Position numbers and translations under genes: made by a program. Below are positions 2,163-21,919 of a stretch of 64,000 bases of DNA, piece after piece. The notes under the pieces were generated by a model. That model was not told the DNA's origin. It searched no databases and worked only from the letters and a program-made list of their open reading frames with translations. Numbering within the stretch: the first letter of the stretch is position 1; every line of letters begins with the position of its first letter. The DNA comes from an uncultured virus (IMG/VR IMGVR_UViG_3300042308_001786) (Duplodnaviria; Heunggongvirae; Uroviricota; Caudoviricetes). The stretch is taken from the IMG/VR virus record IMGVR_UViG_3300042308_001786. One strand, given 5' to 3'.

Positions 2163-2912
2163 ATGGCTAAGCCTGAGATTGAATTTACAACGCCACAAGA
2201 AGAGCTTGAATATGCTGCTAATGCATTGCAAAAAGCAGGCGTAAGTTTGACGCAGTTTGAAGCCGTAAGGGAAACAAAAGTGAATGGCGGCAATGGTGCT
2301 GCTGGTTATTCAAAGGAAATGCTTGGTCTTAGGCGATGGATGGTGCAAGAGCTTCTTGCTGCAAAGATGAGCAATCGTCAAATTGCAAATGTTCTAAAAC
2401 TAAGCAAGGAAACAGTTAATGGTGATCGCCATTTCAACAGGCAACTGTACACAGAAGAAATTCTCAAGAATCAAGACGTGCATCGAGCACGTCTTTTGAA
2501 AGAGCAAATGGACTTAAAAGATTTGGCTCTTGATAGCTTTGAGAAAAGCAAAAGGAAGCGTGTGATAACAATGATGGAAGGCGGTGACGATGGAGGTAAA
2601 GAGATGATCAAAATTGAAGAATGTGCTGGCGACGCATCGTTCCTTAACGTGGCAAAGAATTCTCTTGTTGAGCAGGCGAAGCTGCTGGGTCTCAATGAAA
2701 TCAAACAAGAGTCACAACAAGACAATTCCTACAGGAAATTCCTAAAAGATCTTTCCACCACCATTGCAAAAGAAAAAGAAGCCACTGCCACCGAAGAACG
2801 CAGGAAGAATTCCTTGCCTGCATCGGCGGAAGTTAGTTTTGATGCAGAGCCAGAGAAAGAGGAATGGCCTGAGACCATTCCTTTACAAACAATTAATAAA
2901 GACGACTATTGA
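2163..2912 (+). CDS. HTH protein, probable terminase small subunit
   Basis: HTH (MSNRQIANVLKLSKETVNGD) plus GDASFL...EQAKLLGL, a motif typical of HTH-type TerS. Confidence 0.5.
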   Translation: MAKPEIEFTTPQEELEYAANALQKAGVSLTQFEAVRETKVNGGNGAAGYSKEMLGLRRWMVQELLAAKMSNRQIANVLKLSKETVNGDRHFNRQLYTEEILKNQDVHRARLLKEQMDLKDLALDSFEKSKRKRVITMMEGGDDGGKEMIKIEECAGDASFLNVAKNSLVEQAKLLGLNEIKQESQQDNSYRKFLKDLSTTIAKEKEATATEERRKNSLPASAEVSFDAEPEKEEWPETIPLQTINKDDY

Positions 2913-9507: not shown

Positions 9508-9741
9508 ATGACAATGCCTTATTCTCTCATTGTTGATGATGAATGGGGCGTGCCTTACGCCCTCAAGACTTTTGAAACTATTCAAGACGTGCATGATGAA
9601 ATTAGAACAATGGACGAAGCATTAGACAATGTGGGGCCTGGTGCAGCGTATGCCATTCGCTGTATTATTGACCAGCTCAAAGAAATTGTTCACGAGGCTG
9701 AAGAAGAGCCTGACTTCCTTCCTGACCGTCCTGCTTTCTGA
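9508..9741 (+). CDS. hypothetical protein; paralog of 13459-13680
   Basis: Aligns by eye with the island ORF at 13459. Confidence 0.7.
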   Translation: MTMPYSLIVDDEWGVPYALKTFETIQDVHDEIRTMDEALDNVGPGAAYAIRCIIDQLKEIVHEAEEEPDFLPDRPAF

Positions 9742-9744
9742 ACC

Positions 9745-10044
9745 ATGCTGACCATTTCCACTTATCAAGACAACGGCCCGTATTTCCCTCCCACTAGAGG
9801 CCGCTACCAAGCGGCCCGTTTGAGAGACCTTCTCTTCCACGTCAGGCAAGCGATGGAGGATCGGGAAGACATTATTGCCGTCTTTGACCAGCAAGGCTCT
9901 TGCAGGGGCATCTGGCGCAGGGACGTTGAAGGTTACATAGACAGCGCTGGTGATGCCATCATTGATCACGATGGCTACGAGCTGATGCGTCCCGATACCA
10001 AAGAGCAATGGCTGTGGAAGAGGCTTCAGCAGGTAATGAAATGA
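9745..10044 (+). CDS. hypothetical protein
   Basis: 99 aa, tightly packed. Confidence 0.6.
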   Translation: MLTISTYQDNGPYFPPTRGRYQAARLRDLLFHVRQAMEDREDIIAVFDQQGSCRGIWRRDVEGYIDSAGDAIIDHDGYELMRPDTKEQWLWKRLQQVMK

Positions 10045-10199
10045 TTCTCGTAGATTTCTTCTCTGAAGATTGCTGCAAAGGTACAGAACTTGTTGAAGGT
10101 TGGTATTTCTATGCTGATGATGATGAAAGCTTTGTAGGAGGACCGTTTGCCAGCGAAGAAGCCGCCCTAAAGGCGGCTTTTGATGGCCATGGCTGGTGA
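10041..10199 (+). CDS. hypothetical protein (EGWYF...GPFASEEAA)
   Basis: ATGA overlap; recurrent small phage protein motif. Confidence 0.6.
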   Translation: MILVDFFSEDCCKGTELVEGWYFYADDDESFVGGPFASEEAALKAAFDGHGW

Positions 10200-10214
10200 A
10201 AACAAACTGAAACG

Positions 10215-10275
10215 CGGTAAGGGGACTAAACGAAAGACGGTATGGGGACTAAGCAGAATGCGGTATATTAGGAGC
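10215..10275. repeat. 23-bp-period tandem repeat CGGTA.GGGGACTAA
   Basis: CGGTA at 10215, 10238 and 10261; GGGGACTAA in the first two copies. Confidence 0.6.
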
Positions 10276-10422
10276 CGCCCCAGCCCCCCATTTTCGGCCT
10301 CGCTCATGCTTCTATGCGCCTACACGCATATGCGCATACACGCATGTCAGGAGACGCTGACATAGGGCTGTGTGCTGATATCCTGACTGATACTGATACG
10401 TATCCGTAGCAGATACTGGCCA

Positions 10423-10570
10423 TGATCATGATCATTCACGCTACTGATCATGATCACACTCTCGGTTGATCACGATCATGATCACGATGGCGCTTTGATG
10501 GGGATCCTCATCATGATCGGCTCTCGCTCTCTCTCATGATCACGATCCCGCTCTGATCATGATCATGATC
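10423..10570. repeat. GATC/TGATCA array
   Basis: 14 GATC counted in about 150 bp, many in 6-bp phase (CATGATCATGATCA). Confidence 0.85.
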
Positions 10571-10575
10571 CTGAT

Positions 10576-10636
10576 GTTAAGAGATGTGACAATACGGCTC
10601 CGCGCCTCTGGCTCCTCCTCTCCTTCTTTCTATTGT
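10576..10636 (+). promoter_or_regulatory. island promoter 1
   Basis: GTTAAGAGATGTGACA-39 nt-TATTGTCTCTGGCA; same architecture as 11703-11763. Confidence 0.55.
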
Positions 10637-10679
10637 CTCTGGCAAGGCCGCGAGGCCTCCTCTCTGTTCTCTGGCTCTC

Positions 10680-11054
10680 ATGCTCTCCCCTTCTCTCAGA
10701 GGCTCTGCCTCTCCCTCCTTCCCTCCTCTCTCTGATTTGATCGAGGCGCTCTCCTCTCTCCCATGGGAGGCGATCGCCTCTCAGGCTCTCGAGGCGCTCC
10801 TGTTCTCTCTGGCTCTCTGCCATGCTCTCACCGCTCGTCTCTGGCAGGCTCGAGGCCGTCTCGCTCCTCTCCTTCGCTCTGTAGCCTCCTCGCTCGAGCG
10901 CCTCGCCTCCGCTCTGCCAGAGCCTCTCTCCTCCTCCTCTCCTCGCGCTCTGTTGATCGAGGCTCTGACAGAGGCAGGAGAGAAAGCTCCCGCTCTGGCG
11001 AAGGCCTCCCGCTCCGCTCTCCTTCGCCGCGCATCTCGTCTCGGCCTCCTCTGA
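10680..11054 (+). CDS. low-complexity island hypothetical protein 1
   Basis: ATG after hairpin and pyrimidine leader; helical L/A/S/R-rich sequence. Confidence 0.55.
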   Translation: MLSPSLRGSASPSFPPLSDLIEALSSLPWEAIASQALEALLFSLALCHALTARLWQARGRLAPLLRSVASSLERLASALPEPLSSSSPRALLIEALTEAGEKAPALAKASRSALLRRASRLGLL

Positions 11055-11129
11055 GGCTCTGCCTCTGGCCTCCCCTCAAGGGAGGCCTCCCTCCTCTCCT
11101 TCCTTCTCTGTTCTCTCGCTCTCGCTCCC

Positions 11130-11327
11130 ATGGCTCCCACTCACGAACTCCTCGCCTCTGATCTCTCCTGGCCTCGCTTCTCCTTCTCCTCTCGTCGTGA
11201 GGCCGCTCTGTTTGCTCGCGAGCTCGAGGAGGAGCTCTCCTCCCCCTCGCTCTCTCCTGAGGCTCGAGCTGACAGAGAGGAGGCGCTCGAGGAGCTCCTC
11301 TCCCTTCTGTTCTCTCCCGTCTCCTGA
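11130..11327 (+). CDS. island hypothetical protein 2
   Basis: ATG after hairpin leader; amphipathic acidic helices. Confidence 0.55.
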   Translation: MAPTHELLASDLSWPRFSFSSRREAALFARELEEELSSPSLSPEARADREEALEELLSLLFSPVS

Positions 11328-11336
11328 GGCTCTGCC

Positions 11337-11513
11337 ATGCTCTCCTTTCTCGAGAGGCGCCTCGCCACAATCGAGCGCCTCCTCCCTCGCCTCTCAGGAG
11401 AGGCAGAGGAGCGCCTCCTCCGTGAGAGGCGCTCCCTCCTTCGCCTTCGCCATGGCATCCCACTAGGTGCCGAGCTCCCTCTCTCTGTTCGCTCTGCTGA
11501 TCTCTCCTCCTAA
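11337..11513 (+). CDS. island hypothetical protein 3 (MLSFLERRLATIERLLPRL...)
   Basis: Read manually, 58 aa, tightly packed. Confidence 0.5.
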   Translation: MLSFLERRLATIERLLPRLSGEAEERLLRERRSLLRLRHGIPLGAELPLSVRSADLSS

Positions 11514-11522
11514 GGCTCTCTC

Positions 11523-11693
11523 ATGGCTCTCCCTTCCTACTTACGAGCTCGGCTCCTCGATCGCGCGGAGGAGCTCGGCCTCGCCTCCTCTGGCCTCCCC
11601 TTTCTCCTCGAGGAGCTCGCTAGGTGGCTGCCGTCTCCCACGATCGAGGCCTTTCTCTCTGATCTCGAGGAGCTCTCCTCCTCCGATCTCTGA
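11523..11693 (+). CDS. island hypothetical protein 4 (MALPSYLRARLLDRAEELG...LLEELARWLPSPTIEAFLSDLE)
   Basis: Read manually, 56 aa, tightly packed. Confidence 0.55.
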   Translation: MALPSYLRARLLDRAEELGLASSGLPFLLEELARWLPSPTIEAFLSDLEELSSSDL

Positions 11694-11702
11694 CGGTCGT
11701 TT

Positions 11703-11763
11703 GTTGCGAAATATTTCAAGAGGAGCGGGAGGCTCTGGCCTCCCCCTCTATATCGCCTATTGT
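11703..11763 (+). promoter_or_regulatory. island promoter 2
   Basis: GTTGCGAAATATTTCA-39 nt-TATTGTCTCTGGCA. Confidence 0.5.
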
Positions 11764-11994
11764 CTCTGGCATGAGGCGAGCGATCGCCTTGCTCTCTCGC
11801 TTCCCTCTCATGGCTCTTGATCTCATCTCCGCTCTGATCATCACAAACACTCAGAGCTCCGGCGGTCGTTACGATCACGCCGGCGTTGCCTGCCTCTGGC
11901 AGGCGCTCCGCTCCTCCCTTCTCTGATCTCTCAAGGGAGGCCGCGAGGCCTCCCGCTCTCCTTCCCGCTCTCCTTCCCTCTCGCTCTCTGTCTC

Positions 11995-12234
11995 ATGCTC
12001 CGCTCTGTTCGCGCTCTCGCTCCTACCCTCGCTCTGTTCGCGGGCTCTGTAGGGTTCGGCCTCTGCACCGCTACCTACGGCTCTCGCATTGCTCTGGCTC
12101 CCTCCGCTAGAGAAGCGGCTCCCTTCGCCGCTCCCTTCGCTCTGTTCGCCTCTGCTGCTGCTGCATCCTTCGCTCTGGCTGCTGCTGCATCCTGCGATGC
12201 TGCTGAGAAGCTCTCCCGCTCCCCTCGCTCCTGA
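11995..12234 (+). CDS. island hypothetical membrane protein
   Basis: Two hydrophobic segments; ATG after hairpin leader. Confidence 0.5.
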   Translation: MLRSVRALAPTLALFAGSVGFGLCTATYGSRIALAPSAREAAPFAAPFALFASAAAASFALAAAASCDAAEKLSRSPRS

Positions 12235-12295
12235 GCTCCTGGCCTCCCCATAGGGAGGCCTTCTCTCTGTTCGCTCTCCTCTCTCCTTCCTTCTC

Positions 12296-13402
12296 ATGGC
12301 TCCCGCTCTCCTGGCTCCTCTCGCTCCCGCTCGCCTCTCTCGCGCTCCTCGCGCTCCTGAGCGCGTTCGCTCCCTCCTTTCTAGATTCGGGCTCTCCGTA
12401 GACTCTGTTCTGACGTCAGGCTCCGCGAATGCAAAGCTCGCAAAAGGGAGCGGCCTCGCCTTCTCATCGATTCTCCATCTCCTCCCCTCTCGCGGCCTCG
12501 CTCGAGCCGTCTCTCCTGGCTCTCATGCCTCTCCCGTGAGAGGAGAGCTCCCTGGCATCCGCGCTCTGGCAGACAGAGAAGGCCTCACCGCTCGAGCTCT
12601 CCTCTTTAATGCTTGCCCCTTCGCCTCAGAGGCCTGTCAGGAGCTTTGCCTCGCCTTCTCTGGCCACGGGGGAATCAGTCAGAGCGTAGGAGCCTGCAGA
12701 GCTCGCCGCTCCCTTGCTCTCCTTGCTGATCGTGAGGCCTTCGCTCTCTCCCTCCTATGGGCGGCTGGCCTCTCCTATCGCAAGGCCCGCCGTCTCGGCC
12801 TCCCCTTCGCGCTCCGCCTTAATGGCACTCAAGAACTCCCATGGCAGGAGGCCTGGCTCTCTGTTCGCCTCTCTCGTGAGGAGGCAGAGGCTCTCTCCGC
12901 TCTGTTCGGCGCTCCTATCCCTCAGGGCATCCGCACCATCCCTGAGGCTCTCGCATCTGTCCCCTTCCTTTCTCTCTACGATTATGCCAAGGCTCCCGTG
13001 TACGGACGCTCTGGCCTCCTGGCCATGAGACAGGCAGGCATCCATACAACGGCCTCTCTCGCTGCTGATCGTGAGGGAGGAGCCTCTCGCGCTCTTGATG
13101 CCGTTGAGGCAGGCTTCTCTCTGGCGGTTCCAATCCTGGCCAGCAAAGGAGAGGAGCTCCCGAGCTCCCTCCTCCTCCGCAATGACAGAGGCAGAGAAGC
13201 TCTCCTCCAGTGCATTGATGGGGATGCAAATGATCTCAGGATGCTCGATCCCGCTCCCGCTCCTGGCTTCTCTGGCCTCGCCGTCTTGCTCCGCCTCAAG
13301 CGATCAAGAGGAGCCGATCCTTCTGCGGCCTCTCGCTTCGCTCTCGCTCCTGACTCTGGCCTCATGGCAGGAGGAGGCTCCTACAGGTTCTCTCGCATCT
13401 GA
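12296..13402 (+). CDS. GP88-like protein (Cys-motif, radical-SAM-like phage family)
   Basis: NAKLAK, ACPFASEACQELCLA, LRLNGT, YDYAK and IDGDANDLRMLDP match my recollection of GP88-family motifs (NxKLxK, CPxAxxxCxxxC, RLNGTSD, YDYTK, DGDxxDLRFLD). Confidence 0.65.
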   Translation: MAPALLAPLAPARLSRAPRAPERVRSLLSRFGLSVDSVLTSGSANAKLAKGSGLAFSSILHLLPSRGLARAVSPGSHASPVRGELPGIRALADREGLTARALLFNACPFASEACQELCLAFSGHGGISQSVGACRARRSLALLADREAFALSLLWAAGLSYRKARRLGLPFALRLNGTQELPWQEAWLSVRLSREEAEALSALFGAPIPQGIRTIPEALASVPFLSLYDYAKAPVYGRSGLLAMRQAGIHTTASLAADREGGASRALDAVEAGFSLAVPILASKGEELPSSLLLRNDRGREALLQCIDGDANDLRMLDPAPAPGFSGLAVLLRLKRSRGADPSAASRFALAPDSGLMAGGGSYRFSRI

Positions 13403-13458
13403 GAAGCTCCTCCCTAAGGAGGCCTCAAGGCCTCCCGCTCTCCTCCTCTCTCCTTCCC

Positions 13459-13680
13459 ATGGCTCTCCCCCTCTCTCTCTCCGCTCCTGACGAATACGGC
13501 GTGAACCATAGCCTCGCCTCCTTCGCTTCTCTCGAGGAGGCAGAGGAGGCGCTCTCCTCCCTACTCTCAGAGCTCGAGACAGCCTCCCCCTCTCGTGCCT
13601 TCTCTCTCTCCTGCCTCATCTCCCAACTAGAGGAGCTCCTCCTCGAGGCCTCAGAGACTGAGGAGGAGCCTCTCTCGTGA
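13459..13680 (+). CDS. island hypothetical protein; paralog of 9508-9741
   Basis: DEYGVNHSLASF...CLISQLEE versus DEWGVPYALKTF...CIIDQLKE. Confidence 0.65.
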   Translation: MALPLSLSAPDEYGVNHSLASFASLEEAEEALSSLLSELETASPSRAFSLSCLISQLEELLLEASETEEEPLS

Positions 13681-13907
13681 TCCGCTCCTACCGTCTCCCC
13701 TCCCTCTCCTCTCGCTCCCTCCTCATCGTCTCCCGCTCCGCTCCTCCCCCTGGCCTCCCCCTCCTCGCTCGCTTCGCCTCATGGCGCTCTCGAGAATCAG
13801 GATGGCTCTCTCTCCTCTCCCTTCGCCTCCCTGGCCTCTGGCTCCTCCTCCTCCGCTCTCTCCCCTCTCAATCCCGCCTACGTAGGATCGGCTACCCGCC
13901 CTGCTAG
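13677..13907 (+). CDS. island hypothetical protein
   Basis: GTGA overlap with the previous stop. Confidence 0.4.
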   Translation: MIRSYRLPSLSSRSLLIVSRSAPPPGLPLLARFASWRSRESGWLSLLSLRLPGLWLLLLRSLPSQSRLRRIGYPPC

Positions 13908-14051
13908 CCCTCTCTATCCCGCCTTCTAGCCCCGCCTGCTGCTCTCTAGGGTGACAGGCTTTCGCTGTGCCTGCCTATAGTTATGGCCTGGTCAGTGGCC
14001 GCTGTGAGGGAATATCTCCTATGCGCATAGCCGCATAATATAAAAAATAAA

Positions 14052-14077
14052 GAAGGCCCCTATTTTAGGGGCCTTTT
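14052..14077. terminator. bidirectional terminator ending the island transcripts
   Basis: AAGGCCCCTA-TTT-TAGGGGCCTTTT with an A-run upstream, between convergent genes. Confidence 0.75.
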
Positions 14078-20995: not shown

Positions 20996-21919
20996 ATGCT
21001 TACGGTTCTAGATCTCTTCTCTGGCATAGGAGGCTTCAGCTATGCAGCCGAGCAACTTGTCGGTGGTTTCAAGACCATTGCCTTCTGTGATTCAGACGAG
21101 CCTTGTCGGAGAGTGCTTCGCAAGCACTGGCCCGATACGCCTATCTTCACGGACGTTCGTTCGCTCTCAGCGGAAGACATCGCCCCACTTTGTCCAAACG
21201 GACTTTCTCTCATTACTGCAGGCTTCCCCTGTCAAGACCTTAGCGTCGCAGGAAAACAGGCAGGATACGATGGAGAGCGAAGTGTGTTGTTTTATGAAAT
21301 CATCCGTTTGGCTAGGGAGCTTCGACCTGACTTCCTCTTGCTTGAAAACGTTAGGAATTTACTATCCCACAAAAACGGGGAAACTTTCCAAGAAACCCTC
21401 TTTCAAATTGCCAAAGCAGGGTACGATGCAGAGTGGGCAATTATTCCAGCAAGTGATTTGGGAGCCTGTCACAAGCGAGAACGCATCTGGATTATTGCCT
21501 ACTCCTCGGACTTGCTCGGCAATGGCGGCACGAATCAATACGGAAGGCAATTTGGGGAAATCTCGCTTTCCCAATTTGGAAACAGTGATAGGCAGAATGC
21601 TTCCCACTCCAACGGCATCGGACCATTTGGACAGAACCTATCACTATCCAGCTTGCGTGGGGGTGACGAGGGGGGAGAAGCTGAGTTGGACAGTTGGAGC
21701 AGAATTGGGCCACAATTACGGGAACAGTGGCAAGCCAGGGGAGAATCGCTCAATCCTAACTGGCGATCCTATGTATCTCAACCCGCACTTCGTCGAGGAG
21801 ATGATGGGCTATCCAATAGGGTGGACCGACTTAAGCAATTAGGAAATAGTATTGTTCCGCAAGTGGCCGATGTTCCATTGAGAAGGATCAAGGAACTGGC
21901 AAAACAAATGAGTCAATAA
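20996..21919 (+). CDS. dcm: DNA (cytosine-5)-methyltransferase, alpha polypeptide
   Basis: DLFSGIGG, GFPCQ, ENV, HKRERIW and motif X LGNSIVPQ; motif IX missing in this frame. Confidence 0.9.
   Translation: MLTVLDLFSGIGGFSYAAEQLVGGFKTIAFCDSDEPCRRVLRKHWPDTPIFTDVRSLSAEDIAPLCPNGLSLITAGFPCQDLSVAGKQAGYDGERSVLFYEIIRLARELRPDFLLLENVRNLLSHKNGETFQETLFQIAKAGYDAEWAIIPASDLGACHKRERIWIIAYSSDLLGNGGTNQYGRQFGEISLSQFGNSDRQNASHSNGIGPFGQNLSLSSLRGGDEGGEAELDSWSRIGPQLREQWQARGESLNPNWRSYVSQPALRRGDDGLSNRVDRLKQLGNSIVPQVADVPLRRIKELAKQMSQ
21270..21842 (+). CDS. overlapping-frame beta polypeptide of the C5-MTase (TRD plus motif IX); start uncertain
   Basis: Frame open from 21042; LLPTP and MLPTPTASD repeats, LNPHFVEEMMGYPIGWTD. 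Confidence 0.7.
   Translation: MESEVCCFMKSSVWLGSFDLTSSCLKTLGIYYPTKTGKLSKKPSFKLPKQGTMQSGQLFQQVIWEPVTSENASGLLPTPRTCSAMAARINTEGNLGKSRFPNLETVIGRMLPTPTASDHLDRTYHYPACVGVTRGEKLSWTVGAELGHNYGNSGKPGENRSILTGDPMYLNPHFVEEMMGYPIGWTDLSN

What the first reader, a model, noticed from the sequence alone, without database searches (positions are those of the whole stretch)
13459..13680. Internal control: the island gene is a compositionally recoded paralog of the normal gene at 9508-9741
Seen: PYSLIVDDEWGVPYALKTFETIQDVHDEIRTMDEALDNVGPGAAYAIRCIIDQLKE (9508) aligns without gaps to PLSLSAPDEYGVNHSLASFASLEEAEEALSSLLSELETASPSRAFSLSCLISQLEE (13459). Substitutions are directional: I/V to L/A/S, T to S, D to E/S, K to A/E. 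They remove residues whose codons contain AC, GT, AA or AT. Inference: the island bias is a position-dependent selective or mutational force acting on genes placed there, not junk sequence.
Basis: seen in the sequence. Interest (0 to 1): 0.8.

Follow-up and report, generated by a model that had tools for sequence, protein, structure and literature searches.

The report
Recoded small phage protein in A-poor cassette
Two small acidic proteins of a freshwater cyanophage-like virus are true relatives, one written in normal DNA and one in a 3.4 kb adenine-starved gene cassette that has pushed it into an alphabet of mostly seven amino acids while fold pattern and charge stayed the same.

Summary
Observation confirmed. 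ORFs 9508-9741 and 13459-13680 are homologous. Smith-Waterman score is 127 against about 23 +/- 4 for shuffles (0 of 5000). An HMM built only from normal-composition relatives scores the island protein 72.8 bits; the best of 2000 composition-matched shuffles scores 12.7. The substitutions run in the stated direction.

Interpretation partly supported. The island (about 10580-13935; A 0.11, C 0.40 on the coding strand) is real coding DNA under purifying selection. The bias affects all codon positions and the spacers.

Two points need correcting:
- The island gene does not derive from the 9508 gene. Its nearest normal-composition relatives lie directly downstream of GP88 in a syntenic, unbiased phage.
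- The bias follows the GP88 cassette, not the chromosomal position. The same locus is empty in S-CBS4 and unbiased in L089. It carries a different, CTC-avoiding flavour in phages with 85-92% identical flanks. GP88 regions in unrelated backbones are also A-poor and C-rich.

The agent behind the bias is unknown. Generic restriction-site avoidance and excess RNA structure were tested and not supported. The scan has seen this kind of cassette before, on another genome (e1-5872909).

The parts
13459..13680 (+). Island copy: 73-aa acidic protein (net charge -14), predicted strand-strand-helix-helix; 82% of residues are S, L, A, E, P, R or G
   Evidence: ORF. 35 homologues at E<=0.01 among 45 candidates. 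dN/dS 0.43-0.48 against L004, L006 and L007. HMM and shuffle tests. AF2 pLDDT 83.1. Composition.
9508..9741 (+). Normal-composition family member (77 aa from 9508; the likely start is 9514, giving 75 aa); net charge -13, same predicted secondary-structure order
   Evidence: ORF. 15 homologues; 7 of the 9 close ones whose sequences I read are 75 aa starting MPY. AF2 pLDDT 82.5. dN/dS 0.36 against L014.
10580..13935 (+). Compositional island, the GP88 cassette: A 0.11, C 0.40, G 0.23, T 0.26 on the coding strand; CTC at 3x and GAG at 5.6x expectation; AC and GT at 0.33
   Evidence: Contigs from other lake runs are identical over it.
12296..13402 (+). GP88-family protein (PF17338), 368 aa; the core gene of the cassette
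   Evidence: Pfam 39.4 bits against a cut-off of 24.4, E 7.9e-10. phrog_1617, E 2.1e-23. 61 homologues. Differences by codon position 23/15/101 against L014, dN/dS 0.12.
10680..11054 (+). Island ORF, 124 aa, no known family
   Evidence: dN/dS 0.11-0.52. No Pfam or PHROG hit. Homologues in CT-flavour loci.
11130..11327 (+). Island ORF, 65 aa
   Evidence: dN/dS 0.12-0.25 against L014, L004, L007 and L006.
11337..11513 (+). Island ORF, 58 aa
   Evidence: dN/dS 0.16-0.36.
11523..11693 (+). Island ORF, 56 aa
   Evidence: dN/dS 0.08-0.27. The most widely kept small island ORF.
11995..12234 (+). Island ORF, 79 aa
   Evidence: dN/dS 0.13-0.27 against close relatives.
13677..13907 (+). Last island ORF, 76 aa, GTG start overlapping the stop of 13459-13680
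   Evidence: dN/dS 0.14-0.53 against L014, L007, L004 and L006, rising to 0.83 against L023.
13410..13458 (+). Leader unit of the island copy: GGAGGCC-loop-GGCCTCC hairpin, a C/T-rich spacer, then CATGG. The same kind of unit precedes 10680, 11130, 11995 and GP88.
   Evidence: Repeat family D1. Alignment of five leaders. Terminator-like scan hits at 10645, 11080 and 12241.
13409..13667 (+). Presence/absence segment: leader plus nearly the whole island copy. It is missing from L014, whose island is otherwise 87-90% identical.
   Evidence: blastn breakpoints. Three-way alignment.
14051..14077 (.). Two-way intrinsic-terminator-like hairpin closing the cassette and the converging minus-strand gene
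   Evidence: 12-pair stem on the + strand, 10 pairs on the - strand. Sequence.
10420..10575 (.). GATC-rich imperfect repeats and palindromes (ATGATCATGATCA) directly upstream of the island
   Evidence: Sequence. Inverted repeats I1, I5, I10, I22 and direct repeats D19, D20.

Best explanation
Shown here:
- 13459-13680 and 9514-9741 encode two members of a widespread, uncatalogued family of acidic phage proteins 60-80 aa long. The pattern is strand-strand-helix-helix, with a (D/T)EYG turn, an F, an (E/D)(E/D)A helix start, an LE(D/E)A motif and a Q-L motif.
- The island member belongs to a roughly 3.4 kb co-directional cassette built round a GP88-family gene.
- The whole cassette, genes and spacers alike, is under a strand-specific nucleotide-level pressure. 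On the coding strand it replaces A by C: 0.26 to 0.11 for A and 0.23 to 0.40 for C.
- In this clade the pressure favours a vocabulary of CTC, TCT, GCT, CCT, TCC and GAG.

Inferred from the substitution pattern:
- Purifying selection on the proteins holds the fold pattern, the net charge (-14 against -13) and the motif residues.
- Change therefore flows to the chemically nearest residues whose codons fit that vocabulary: I/M/V to L/A, T to S, D to E, K to A/E.

Shown by comparison with other phages:
- The pressure travels with the cassette lineage, not with the site.
- The island copy descends from a normal-composition gene that sits next to GP88. It does not descend from the 9508 gene.
- It is itself a dispensable leader-plus-ORF module.

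Inferred, about even odds:
- The pressure is selection on the cassette's transcript or DNA (avoidance of adenine and of clade-specific short words), not a simple local mutational process.
- The selecting agent is not identified.
For: Homology.

Family breadth: 15 and 35 close homologues. The profile search found 49 cluster representatives at E<=1e-3, nearly all of normal composition.

Same secondary-structure order in both models: E5-10, E16-22, H25-41, H44-69 against E3-8, E14-20, H23-37, H42-64.

The bias is at nucleotide level. A is 0.098, 0.157 and 0.097 at codon positions 1, 2 and 3, and 0.093 in spacers; C3 is 0.45.

Purifying selection: GP88 differs from L014 at 23, 15 and 101 sites by codon position. 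Island ORFs (the poorly conserved 11771 frame aside) have dN/dS of 0.08-0.53 against the four closest relatives, L014, L004, L007 and L006.

The bias is linked to the cassette, not the site:
- L089/L090 have the same flanking genes at 49%, 69% and 61% aa identity.
- They carry GP88 (26%) plus a family member in normal composition.
- S-CBS4 (portal 63.5% identical) has no skewed window, and tblastn with the window's GP88 against the phage collection returned no S-CBS4 record.
- L053 and L051 flanks are 85-92% identical, but the island interior shows no DNA match and a different vocabulary.
- 18 of 78 GP88 loci have none of nine flank markers. The five of them that I profiled are A 0.13-0.15 and C 0.35-0.40.

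Gradient of composition along the tree (S+L+A+E+P+R+G): other family members 0.49, sister normal clade 0.55, basal island type 0.76, window type 0.81.

No sign of ongoing hypermutation. Island identity to L014 is 87-90%, like the flanks at 87-92%. Synonymous divergence in the island (0.17-0.42) is lower than in the flanks (0.57-0.88) against L004 and L006.

The island is not an assembly artefact: contigs of runs X6 and X7 match with 0 differences.
Against: - The tree rests on 74 columns. The node joining the island clade to its normal sisters has support of only 92/83, and the root is a midpoint. Compositional attraction could distort placement, although it would be expected to pull the island clade away from normal sequences, not towards a particular normal clade.
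- The two AF2 models used the same 57-row alignment, so their agreement is not independent evidence of a shared fold.
- Selection against mutation is not resolved. Both predict the strongest bias at the least constrained sites. The lower synonymous divergence in the island could equally mean recent horizontal spread of the cassette.
- Every S-CBS4-like backbone that carries GP88 at 39% identity or more has some A-poor island at this site. A site-linked factor acting together with cassette history is therefore not excluded.
- Neither the small protein nor GP88 has an assigned function.
- 24 of 38 loci assessable on both sides carry no family member near GP88. The gene is accessory.
Confidence: 0.7

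Rival explanations
1. One reading: a force tied to the chromosomal position (local mutational field or local selection) recodes whatever gene lies there. The 13459 gene is a copy of the 9508 gene that landed in the field.
For: - The boundaries are sharp, within about 100 nt.
- Genes of unrelated families and the spacers all share the bias.
- Nearly all S-CBS4-like loci with GP88 show some A-poor island between the same flanking genes.
Against: - The same site is unbiased in L089/L090 and empty in S-CBS4.
- Phages with 85-92% identical flanks carry opposite vocabularies: CTC at 3.0x against 0.35x expectation.
- GP88 regions in backbones sharing none of nine flank markers are still A-poor and C-rich.
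- The tree and the HMM scores put the island copy nearer to other normal members than to the 9508 clade.
Confidence: 0.12
2. The island is a recent horizontal acquisition from a high-GC donor (host or another phage) and simply keeps the donor's composition. The amino-acid shift is the ordinary GC effect.
For: - The GCC/CTG/GGC/CCC flavour of L053-type islands looks like high-GC codon usage.
- The nearest cultured relative infects Synechococcus sp. CB0101.
- Cassette alleles are clearly exchanged between backbones.
Against: - In phages whose own backbone is 62-66% GC the GP88 region is still more extreme, and the C/G skew flips from G>C in the flanks to C>G.
- The window flavour is not merely GC-rich: T stays at 0.26, G is 0.23, and the net change is A to C.
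- The bias persists over GP88 divergence from 100% down to about 40% identity, so it is maintained, not decaying.
- Only 3 GP88 hits turned up in 185,579 species genomes, all in MAG contigs. No host source is visible.
Confidence: 0.1
3. A local hypermutation process, for example a diversity-generating retroelement with adenine-specific mutagenesis or a strand-specific deaminase, is eroding adenines in the cassette.
For: - Adenine is the depleted base and the effect is strand-specific.
- GP88 is far more diverged than the flanks between L053 and the window.
Against: - None of the 90 window ORFs scanned hit a reverse transcriptase or deaminase family in Pfam at E<=0.01.
- The island does not diverge faster than the flanks between close relatives, and its synonymous divergence is lower.
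- The net A-to-C change matches no single deamination or oxidation pathway (established chemistry, recalled).
- Different clades favour or avoid the same trinucleotide, which a base-specific mutator does not explain.
Confidence: 0.07
4. The similarity is a by-product of low-complexity, E/L/S/A-rich sequence, and the island ORF is not a real gene.
For: - BLASTP reports nothing.
- All six frames of the island are open because stop codons are rare.
Against: - 0 of 5000 and 0 of 2000 composition-matched shuffles come near the observed scores.
- The two proteins are collinear from Met1.
- The island protein has 35 conserved homologues of the same length.
- Substitutions show third-position excess.
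- An orthologue of normal composition sits at the same place in L089.
Confidence: 0.01

Closest known systems
Directional nucleotide pressure shaping protein composition (genome-wide GC effect on amino-acid usage; Sueoka; Singer and Hickey). Recalled from memory, not read here.
   Same: A nucleotide-level bias is visible at silent sites and spacers and drags amino-acid usage. Conservative replacements are chosen by codon make-up.
   Different: Here the effect is confined to about 3.4 kb inside a phage genome of about 48% GC. It is strand-specific, amounts to a net A-to-C change and not AT-to-GC, and has extreme word preferences (CTC/GAG cover 45% of the island against 8% elsewhere). It is inherited with one gene cassette and comes in clade-specific flavours.
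   Same: It shares 5 of 180 short words with the window's GP88. It is described as a 3 kb, six-gene cassette with adenine at 10% on the coding strand, kept in related phages.
   Different: That note concerns the cassette as a whole on other DNA. The present work adds the inside/outside family pair, the unbiased syntenic orthologue pair, the empty site, the opposite-flavour alleles and the presence/absence of the focal gene.
Pfam PF17338 (GP88) / phrog_1617, phage proteins of unknown function
   Same: The core gene of the cassette matches above Pfam's cut-off.
   Different: This concerns the neighbouring gene, not the focal protein. The focal family matches no Pfam or PHROG model at a meaningful level.
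Pre-early (first-step-transfer) region of phage T5 and the early region of T7, where leading DNA is poor in restriction sites and encodes small anti-defence proteins such as the acidic DNA mimic Ocr. Recalled from memory, not read here.
   Same: A short co-directional block of small ORFs of unknown function, including a very acidic 73-aa protein, closed by a terminator.
   Different: Six-base palindromes are not depleted: 69 in the island against 24-48 in equal-sized chunks elsewhere, and 18 distinct kinds against 16-28. The position relative to the genome ends is unknown. No fold match to known mimics.
ACA-less messages that escape the MazF endoribonuclease. Recalled from memory, not read here.
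   Same: A message can be written without the word that a sequence-specific RNase cuts and still encode a working protein. This is the nearest known working principle for the boldest reading.
   Different: No RNase, no expression data and no host are known here. The avoided words differ between cassette clades.

Membership tests
Small acidic DEYG family (uncatalogued; defined here by alignment A5 and its HMM) | Significant match to a profile built from normal-composition members only | tested here: met
   72.8 bits against a maximum of 12.7 in 2000 shuffles. The profile search recovers both window proteins' clusters at E 8.5e-32 and 1.3e-27.
Small acidic DEYG family (uncatalogued; defined here by alignment A5 and its HMM) | Length of 60-80 aa, collinear from the start, strand-strand-helix-helix order, strongly acidic | tested here: met
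   73 and 75 aa. Secondary-structure elements come in the same order (the two models share one alignment, so they are not independent). Net charge is -14 and -13.
Pfam PF17338 GP88 (the neighbouring gene 12296-13402) | Score above Pfam's gathering cut-off | tested here: met
   39.4 bits against 24.4. Precomputed PF17338 on most homologues. ESM Atlas neighbours of homologue P0111 are GP88 clusters at 0.96-0.98.
First-entering, restriction-evading early region (T5 FST / T7 early type) | Depletion of palindromic restriction-type sites relative to the rest of the genome | tested here: not met
   Four-base palindromes are 56.7 per kb against 53.2 per kb. Six-base palindromes are 20.6 per kb against 11.9 per kb, with 18 distinct kinds against 16-28 in equal-sized chunks.
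First-entering, restriction-evading early region (T5 FST / T7 early type) | Location at the leading physical end of the packaged genome | not testable with these tools
   Only contigs were available. The S-CBS4 record breaks within or at the end of a gene, so its coordinates look arbitrary.
Diversity-generating retroelement | A reverse transcriptase plus a template/variable repeat pair differing at adenines | tested here: not met
   No RT family among the 90 ORFs of the window. The repeats in the island are short leader units, not a TR/VR pair. The part of the genome outside the window was not examined.
DNA-mimic anti-restriction proteins (Ocr/ArdA type) | Acidic surface that mimics DNA, shown by fold or by binding | tested here: inconclusive
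   The charge criterion is met. Foldseek found nothing at E<=0.001 in PDB or BFVD. No binding test was run.

The most novel reading that the evidence does not exclude
The GP88 cassette is an immediate-early, defence-proof operon. Its message (or its DNA) is written without the words that host sequence-specific nucleases cut: adenine-dependent RNases such as HEPN or toxin-type enzymes, or RNase E. The opposite vocabularies of cassette alleles in near-identical phages record an arms race with different host nucleases. The small acidic proteins, including the focal one, are anti-defence factors that can be made even while such nucleases are active. As a by-product, the family pair would be a natural experiment showing that a folded protein survives compression to an alphabet of about seven amino acids.
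Probability: 0.15. Interest if true: 0.85.

Novelty: new variant of a known kind. Interest (0 to 1): 0.6.

Why it matters
It gives a clean natural control for an odd phenomenon. The same protein family is written in ordinary DNA and in an adenine-starved dialect, with an unbiased orthologue at the same site in a relative. This shows three things:
- The strange 3.4 kb tract is working coding sequence.
- A nucleotide-level constraint can push 82% of a protein's residues into seven amino acids without loss of length, predicted secondary structure or charge.
- The constraint belongs to a mobile gene cassette that exists in several mutually exclusive dialects among near-identical phages.

That last point turns 'why is this DNA so odd' into a testable question about what reads the cassette's DNA or RNA. 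It also offers material for work on reduced amino-acid alphabets.

Tried and rejected
- BLASTP of the two proteins found no alignment under four filter settings. I replaced it with Smith-Waterman and HMM tests against shuffles.
- Segmental duplication of neighbours: no other island ORF has a partner outside the island. Best scores are 40-54, which is background.
- Island small ORFs as pieces of the long N-terminal extension of L053-type GP88: all z scores are 2.0 or less.
- Generic restriction-site avoidance: not supported.
- Excess RNA structure: z is -2.6 against mononucleotide shuffles, but -0.96 against dinucleotide shuffles, with flanks at -0.5 to -0.7 and other flavours at -0.07 to -0.40. 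Dinucleotide content explains it.
- Flanking repeats marking a mobile element: only short low-complexity families were found.
- Function by fold or family: Foldseek PDB and BFVD gave nothing at E<=0.001, best 0.59 and 0.097. Pfam and PHROGs on all 57 family members gave only scattered weak coiled-coil-type hits. The GP88 profile against PDB sequences gave 0 hits at E<=1.
- Host or donor search in species genomes: 3 MAG contigs only.
- Nucleotide search of phage GenBank records with 8 kb of the window: no match.
- RNA evidence: no RNA holder listed among 24 runs.
- Literature: three full-text searches gave nothing on GP88/PF17338 function or on such islands; I saw listings and abstract starts only. 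A fourth search was rejected for a too-short term and was not repeated.
It never ran, and I dropped it because 24 of 38 assessable GP88 loci lack the small protein.
- An alignment of nine distant family members was too variable for a locus scan. A four-member alignment worked.

Full report
**What the window is.** Pfam hits on 90 ORFs show a tailed phage: portal PF06381, capsid PF09950, prohead protease DUF2213, tape measure, terminase, RNR, several HNH endonucleases and a C5 methyltransferase. The closest cultured relative by portal protein is Synechococcus siphovirus S-CBS4, at 63.5% identity over 97% of the protein, and gene order matches its record. Runs that hold the DNA are lake and freshwater metagenomes. 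A 27 kb viral record (G001, loci L001, L002, L010) is 100% identical over 4.7 kb. It is the same phage and is not independent.

**The island.** Between about 10580 and 13935 the + strand is A 0.11, C 0.40, G 0.23, T 0.26. The rest of the window is 0.26, 0.23, 0.25, 0.26.
- The edges are sharp at 100-nt resolution.
- AC and GT are at 0.33 and 0.32 of expectation, TA and TT at about 0.45, and CT, TC, AG and GA at 1.6-2.1.
- CTC occurs 429 times (3.06x) and GAG 109 times (5.6x). Together they cover 45% of the island against 8% elsewhere.
- The bias holds at codon positions 1, 2 and 3 (A 0.098, 0.157, 0.097; C3 0.45). It is at least as strong in the 858 nt between ORFs (A 0.093, C 0.435).
- Contigs of two other lake runs cover the island with 0 differences, so it is not an assembly artefact.

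**Checking the observation.**
- The Smith-Waterman score is 127. Three shuffling schemes give 22.5-22.9 +/- 3.8-4.2, maxima of 47-52, and 0 of 5000 reach it.
- From 788 stop-to-stop frames built across the window, among those outside the island the 9508 frame is the best partner of the island ORF (127, next 45). No other island ORF has a partner above background.
- BLASTP reports nothing under any filter setting. I take this as a seeding failure.
- The decisive control is an HMM built only from 39 normal-composition relatives. It scores the island protein 72.8 bits against a maximum of 12.7 for 2000 shuffles of the same residues.
- The stated direction of change is correct: I>L 5, V>A 3, T>S 3, D>E 3, M>L 2, K>A and K>E once each. 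A falls from 54 to 27 and C rises from 38 to 81. Codons with AC, GT, AA, AT, TA or TT fall from 44 to 15 of 64.
- Among the 20 identical residues, 10 codons are identical and 10 differ. Eight of those ten move to C or G at the third base (TTA>CTC also changes its first base; the others are TTT>TTC, TGT>TGC, ATT>ATC, GAA>GAG, GCG>GCC and so on). Two go the other way (CAG>CAA, CTC>CTA).
- Net charge is kept (-13 and -14).

**The family.**
- The normal gene has 15 close homologues. Seven of the 9 whose sequences I read are 75 aa and start MPY, which points to 9514 as the start.
- The island gene has 35 homologues, all with the S/L/A/E bias.
- A profile of both finds 49 cluster representatives at E<=1e-3 in 1.84 billion proteins. 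Of the 31 I read, all but one (P0116) have ordinary composition.
- No Pfam or PHROG family matches.
- AF2 gives the same element order for both proteins at pLDDT 83.1 and 82.5. Both runs used the same 57-row alignment.
- Foldseek finds nothing at E<=0.001 in PDB or BFVD. Function is unknown.

**Where the island copy comes from.**
- In a maximum-likelihood tree of 57 members (74 columns, so weakly resolved), the island clade (17 rows, support 100/99) joins normal-composition P0115, P0123, P0126, P0129 and P0133 (92/83). It is separated from the clade of the 9508 gene (10 rows, 98/93).
- In agreement, the HMM of 'other' normal members scores the island protein 71.2 bits, while the HMM of the 9508 clade scores it 41.6.
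- A scan with the P0115-type proteins found L089/L090. There a P0126-like gene of normal composition lies directly downstream of a GP88 homologue (26% identity), between the same flanking genes as in the window (49%, 69% and 61% aa identity).
- That region is not skewed (A 0.24-0.31). GP88 there has A 0.32, 0.30, 0.19 by codon position, and S+L+A+E+P+R+G is 0.42 against 0.75 in the window's GP88.
- So the island gene is the positional orthologue of an ordinary gene next to GP88, and only a distant paralogue of 9508.
- S+L+A+E+P+R+G rises along the tree: 0.49 (other family), 0.55 (sister clade), 0.76 (basal island type), 0.81 (window type).

**The genes are alive.** Against L014, L004, L007 and L006, the island ORFs show third-position excess and dN/dS of 0.08-0.53. 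GP88 has 23, 15 and 101 differences by codon position. The focal gene has 0.43-0.48. Against the more distant L023 and L018 some values rise to 0.6-0.83. The frame at 11771 is poorly conserved.

**Site or cassette?** A scan with a GP88 alignment kept the best 80 of 95 relatives.
- Loci with GP88 at 60% identity or more have the C+T-rich type, with pyrimidines at 0.55-0.67 within GP88 itself.
- The 39-50% group is A-poor and C-rich, but with G at 0.29-0.36 and T at 0.14-0.21.
- The word usage differs sharply. CTC is at 2.6-3.0x and GAG at 3.2-6.2x in the window's clade. CTC is at 0.35-0.73 and TC at 0.40-0.67 in L051, L053, L043, L038 and L083, with GCC at 1.6-1.9x. CGC is at 1.5-2.2x and AG at 0.2-0.6 in L063, L069, L080, L086 and L068 (L053's sequence was read).
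- L053 and L051 have flanks 85-92% identical to the window at DNA level, yet there is no DNA match inside the island and GP88 is only 48-50% identical. L051 shares only the last CT-rich stretch.
- 18 of 78 loci share none of nine flank markers with the window. The five of them that I profiled still have A 0.13-0.15 and C 0.35-0.40 round GP88. In the two of those whose flanks I also profiled (L063, L069), the flanks have G>C.
- S-CBS4 has no skewed 400-nt window and only one weak, probably spurious, family hit. tblastn with the window's GP88 matched only four jumbo-phage records and no S-CBS4 record. In the S-CBS4 record the homologue of window gene 9745-10044 runs to the record's last bases and rnr begins at base 352, with a terminator-like hairpin between.
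- Together these results tie the bias to the cassette lineage and show cassette alleles being exchanged between conserved flanks.

**Is it ongoing hypermutation?** Island identity to L014 (87-90%) equals that of the flanks (87-92%). Synonymous divergence is lower inside than outside against L004 and L006 (0.17-0.42 against 0.57-0.88; L007 overlaps more). No RT or deaminase family was seen among the 90 ORFs. The net A-to-C change fits no single base-damage route (general chemistry, recalled). I therefore lean towards selection on the DNA or RNA, at roughly even odds. Recent spread of the cassette would also lower synonymous divergence.

**Candidate agents tested.** Palindromic sites are not depleted. 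There are 69 six-base palindromes against 24-48 in equal-sized chunks, dominated by GAGCTC (17), CTCGAG (15) and AGGCCT (13). This agrees with the earlier scan note e1-5872909, which rejected the restriction-dodging idea on a related cassette. RNA structure exceeds mononucleotide shuffles but not dinucleotide shuffles. No RNA run is listed, so I have no expression data.

**The focal gene is an accessory module.** L014's island is 87-90% identical to the window's but lacks about 13409-13667. That segment is the hairpin leader plus nearly the whole ORF, lying between the GP88 stop and the next ORF's start. Five island genes share this leader design: a GGAGGCC-loop-GGCCTCC hairpin, a C/T-rich spacer, then CATGG. 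Of 38 GP88 loci assessable on both sides, 1 has both copies (the window's own record), 9 have only the upstream normal copy, 4 have only the downstream island copy and 24 have neither. Near-identical contigs were not collapsed.

**Verdict.** The reading needs two corrections: it is a distant paralogue and not a recoded copy, and the pressure is cassette-linked and not site-linked. The phenomenon itself, a gene cassette kept in adenine-poor dialects that differ between near-identical phages, is unexplained. I found nothing on it in three literature searches.

Noticed in passing
window 10420-10575: A dense run of GATC-containing imperfect repeats and palindromes (ATGATCATGATCA and variants) lies immediately upstream of the island. 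It could be a regulatory or origin-like element. GATC is also twice as frequent inside the island (6.6 per kb against 3.4 per kb).
   Followed up: partly
window 10200-10400: Upstream of the GATC block there are paired short repeats (CGGTA..GGGGACTAA twice) and an ATGCGCAT-type palindrome cluster. A similar TATGCGCATAGC lies just after the island at about 14020.
   Followed up: no
L053 2898-3490 and L089 3948-4631, against window 10199-10580: Relatives carry an HNH/NUMOD-type endonuclease gene between the FFSEDCC gene and the cassette. The window has none there, so a homing-endonuclease presence/absence sits next to the variable locus.
   Followed up: no
whole window: CCGG is rare everywhere (0.5-0.6 per kb, against an expectation of about 8 per kb in the island). 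The phage encodes a C5 cytosine methyltransferase at 20996-21919.
   Followed up: no
proteins P0020, P0112, P0114: P0020 is a 120-aa tandem fusion of two island-type family units. P0112 and P0114 are proteins of about 1100 aa with 6-10 stretches matching the family profile.
   Followed up: no
L004 8054-8311 (also L003, L005, L011, L012): A second, weak island-type match to the family (47% to P0047) lies upstream of GP88 inside the island of that phage. The HMM search at E<=1e-3 did not confirm it.
   Followed up: partly
window island against flanks, pairs with L004, L006, L007: Synonymous divergence is clearly lower inside the island than in flanking genes. The cause is either constraint on silent sites or more recent spread of the cassette.
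   Followed up: partly
L051 / L054 islands: Mosaic islands: GP88 in the GCC/CTG dialect is combined with C+T-rich patches that encode homologues of window ORFs 10680 (55%), 11523 (70%) and 13677 (64%).
   Followed up: partly
window 2163-2912: Homologue of the S-CBS4 gene annotated 'Rnase E' (phrog_645, E 1.5e-14), with weak LuxR-type HTH hits. The annotation looks doubtful, but it may bear on any RNA-decay reading.
   Followed up: no
note e1-2656657 (another genome): The scan earlier described a marine Synechococcus operon on a roughly 70% pyrimidine strand with Ser/Leu-rich, Lys-poor proteins. This is a possibly related compositional phenomenon on the host side.
   Followed up: no
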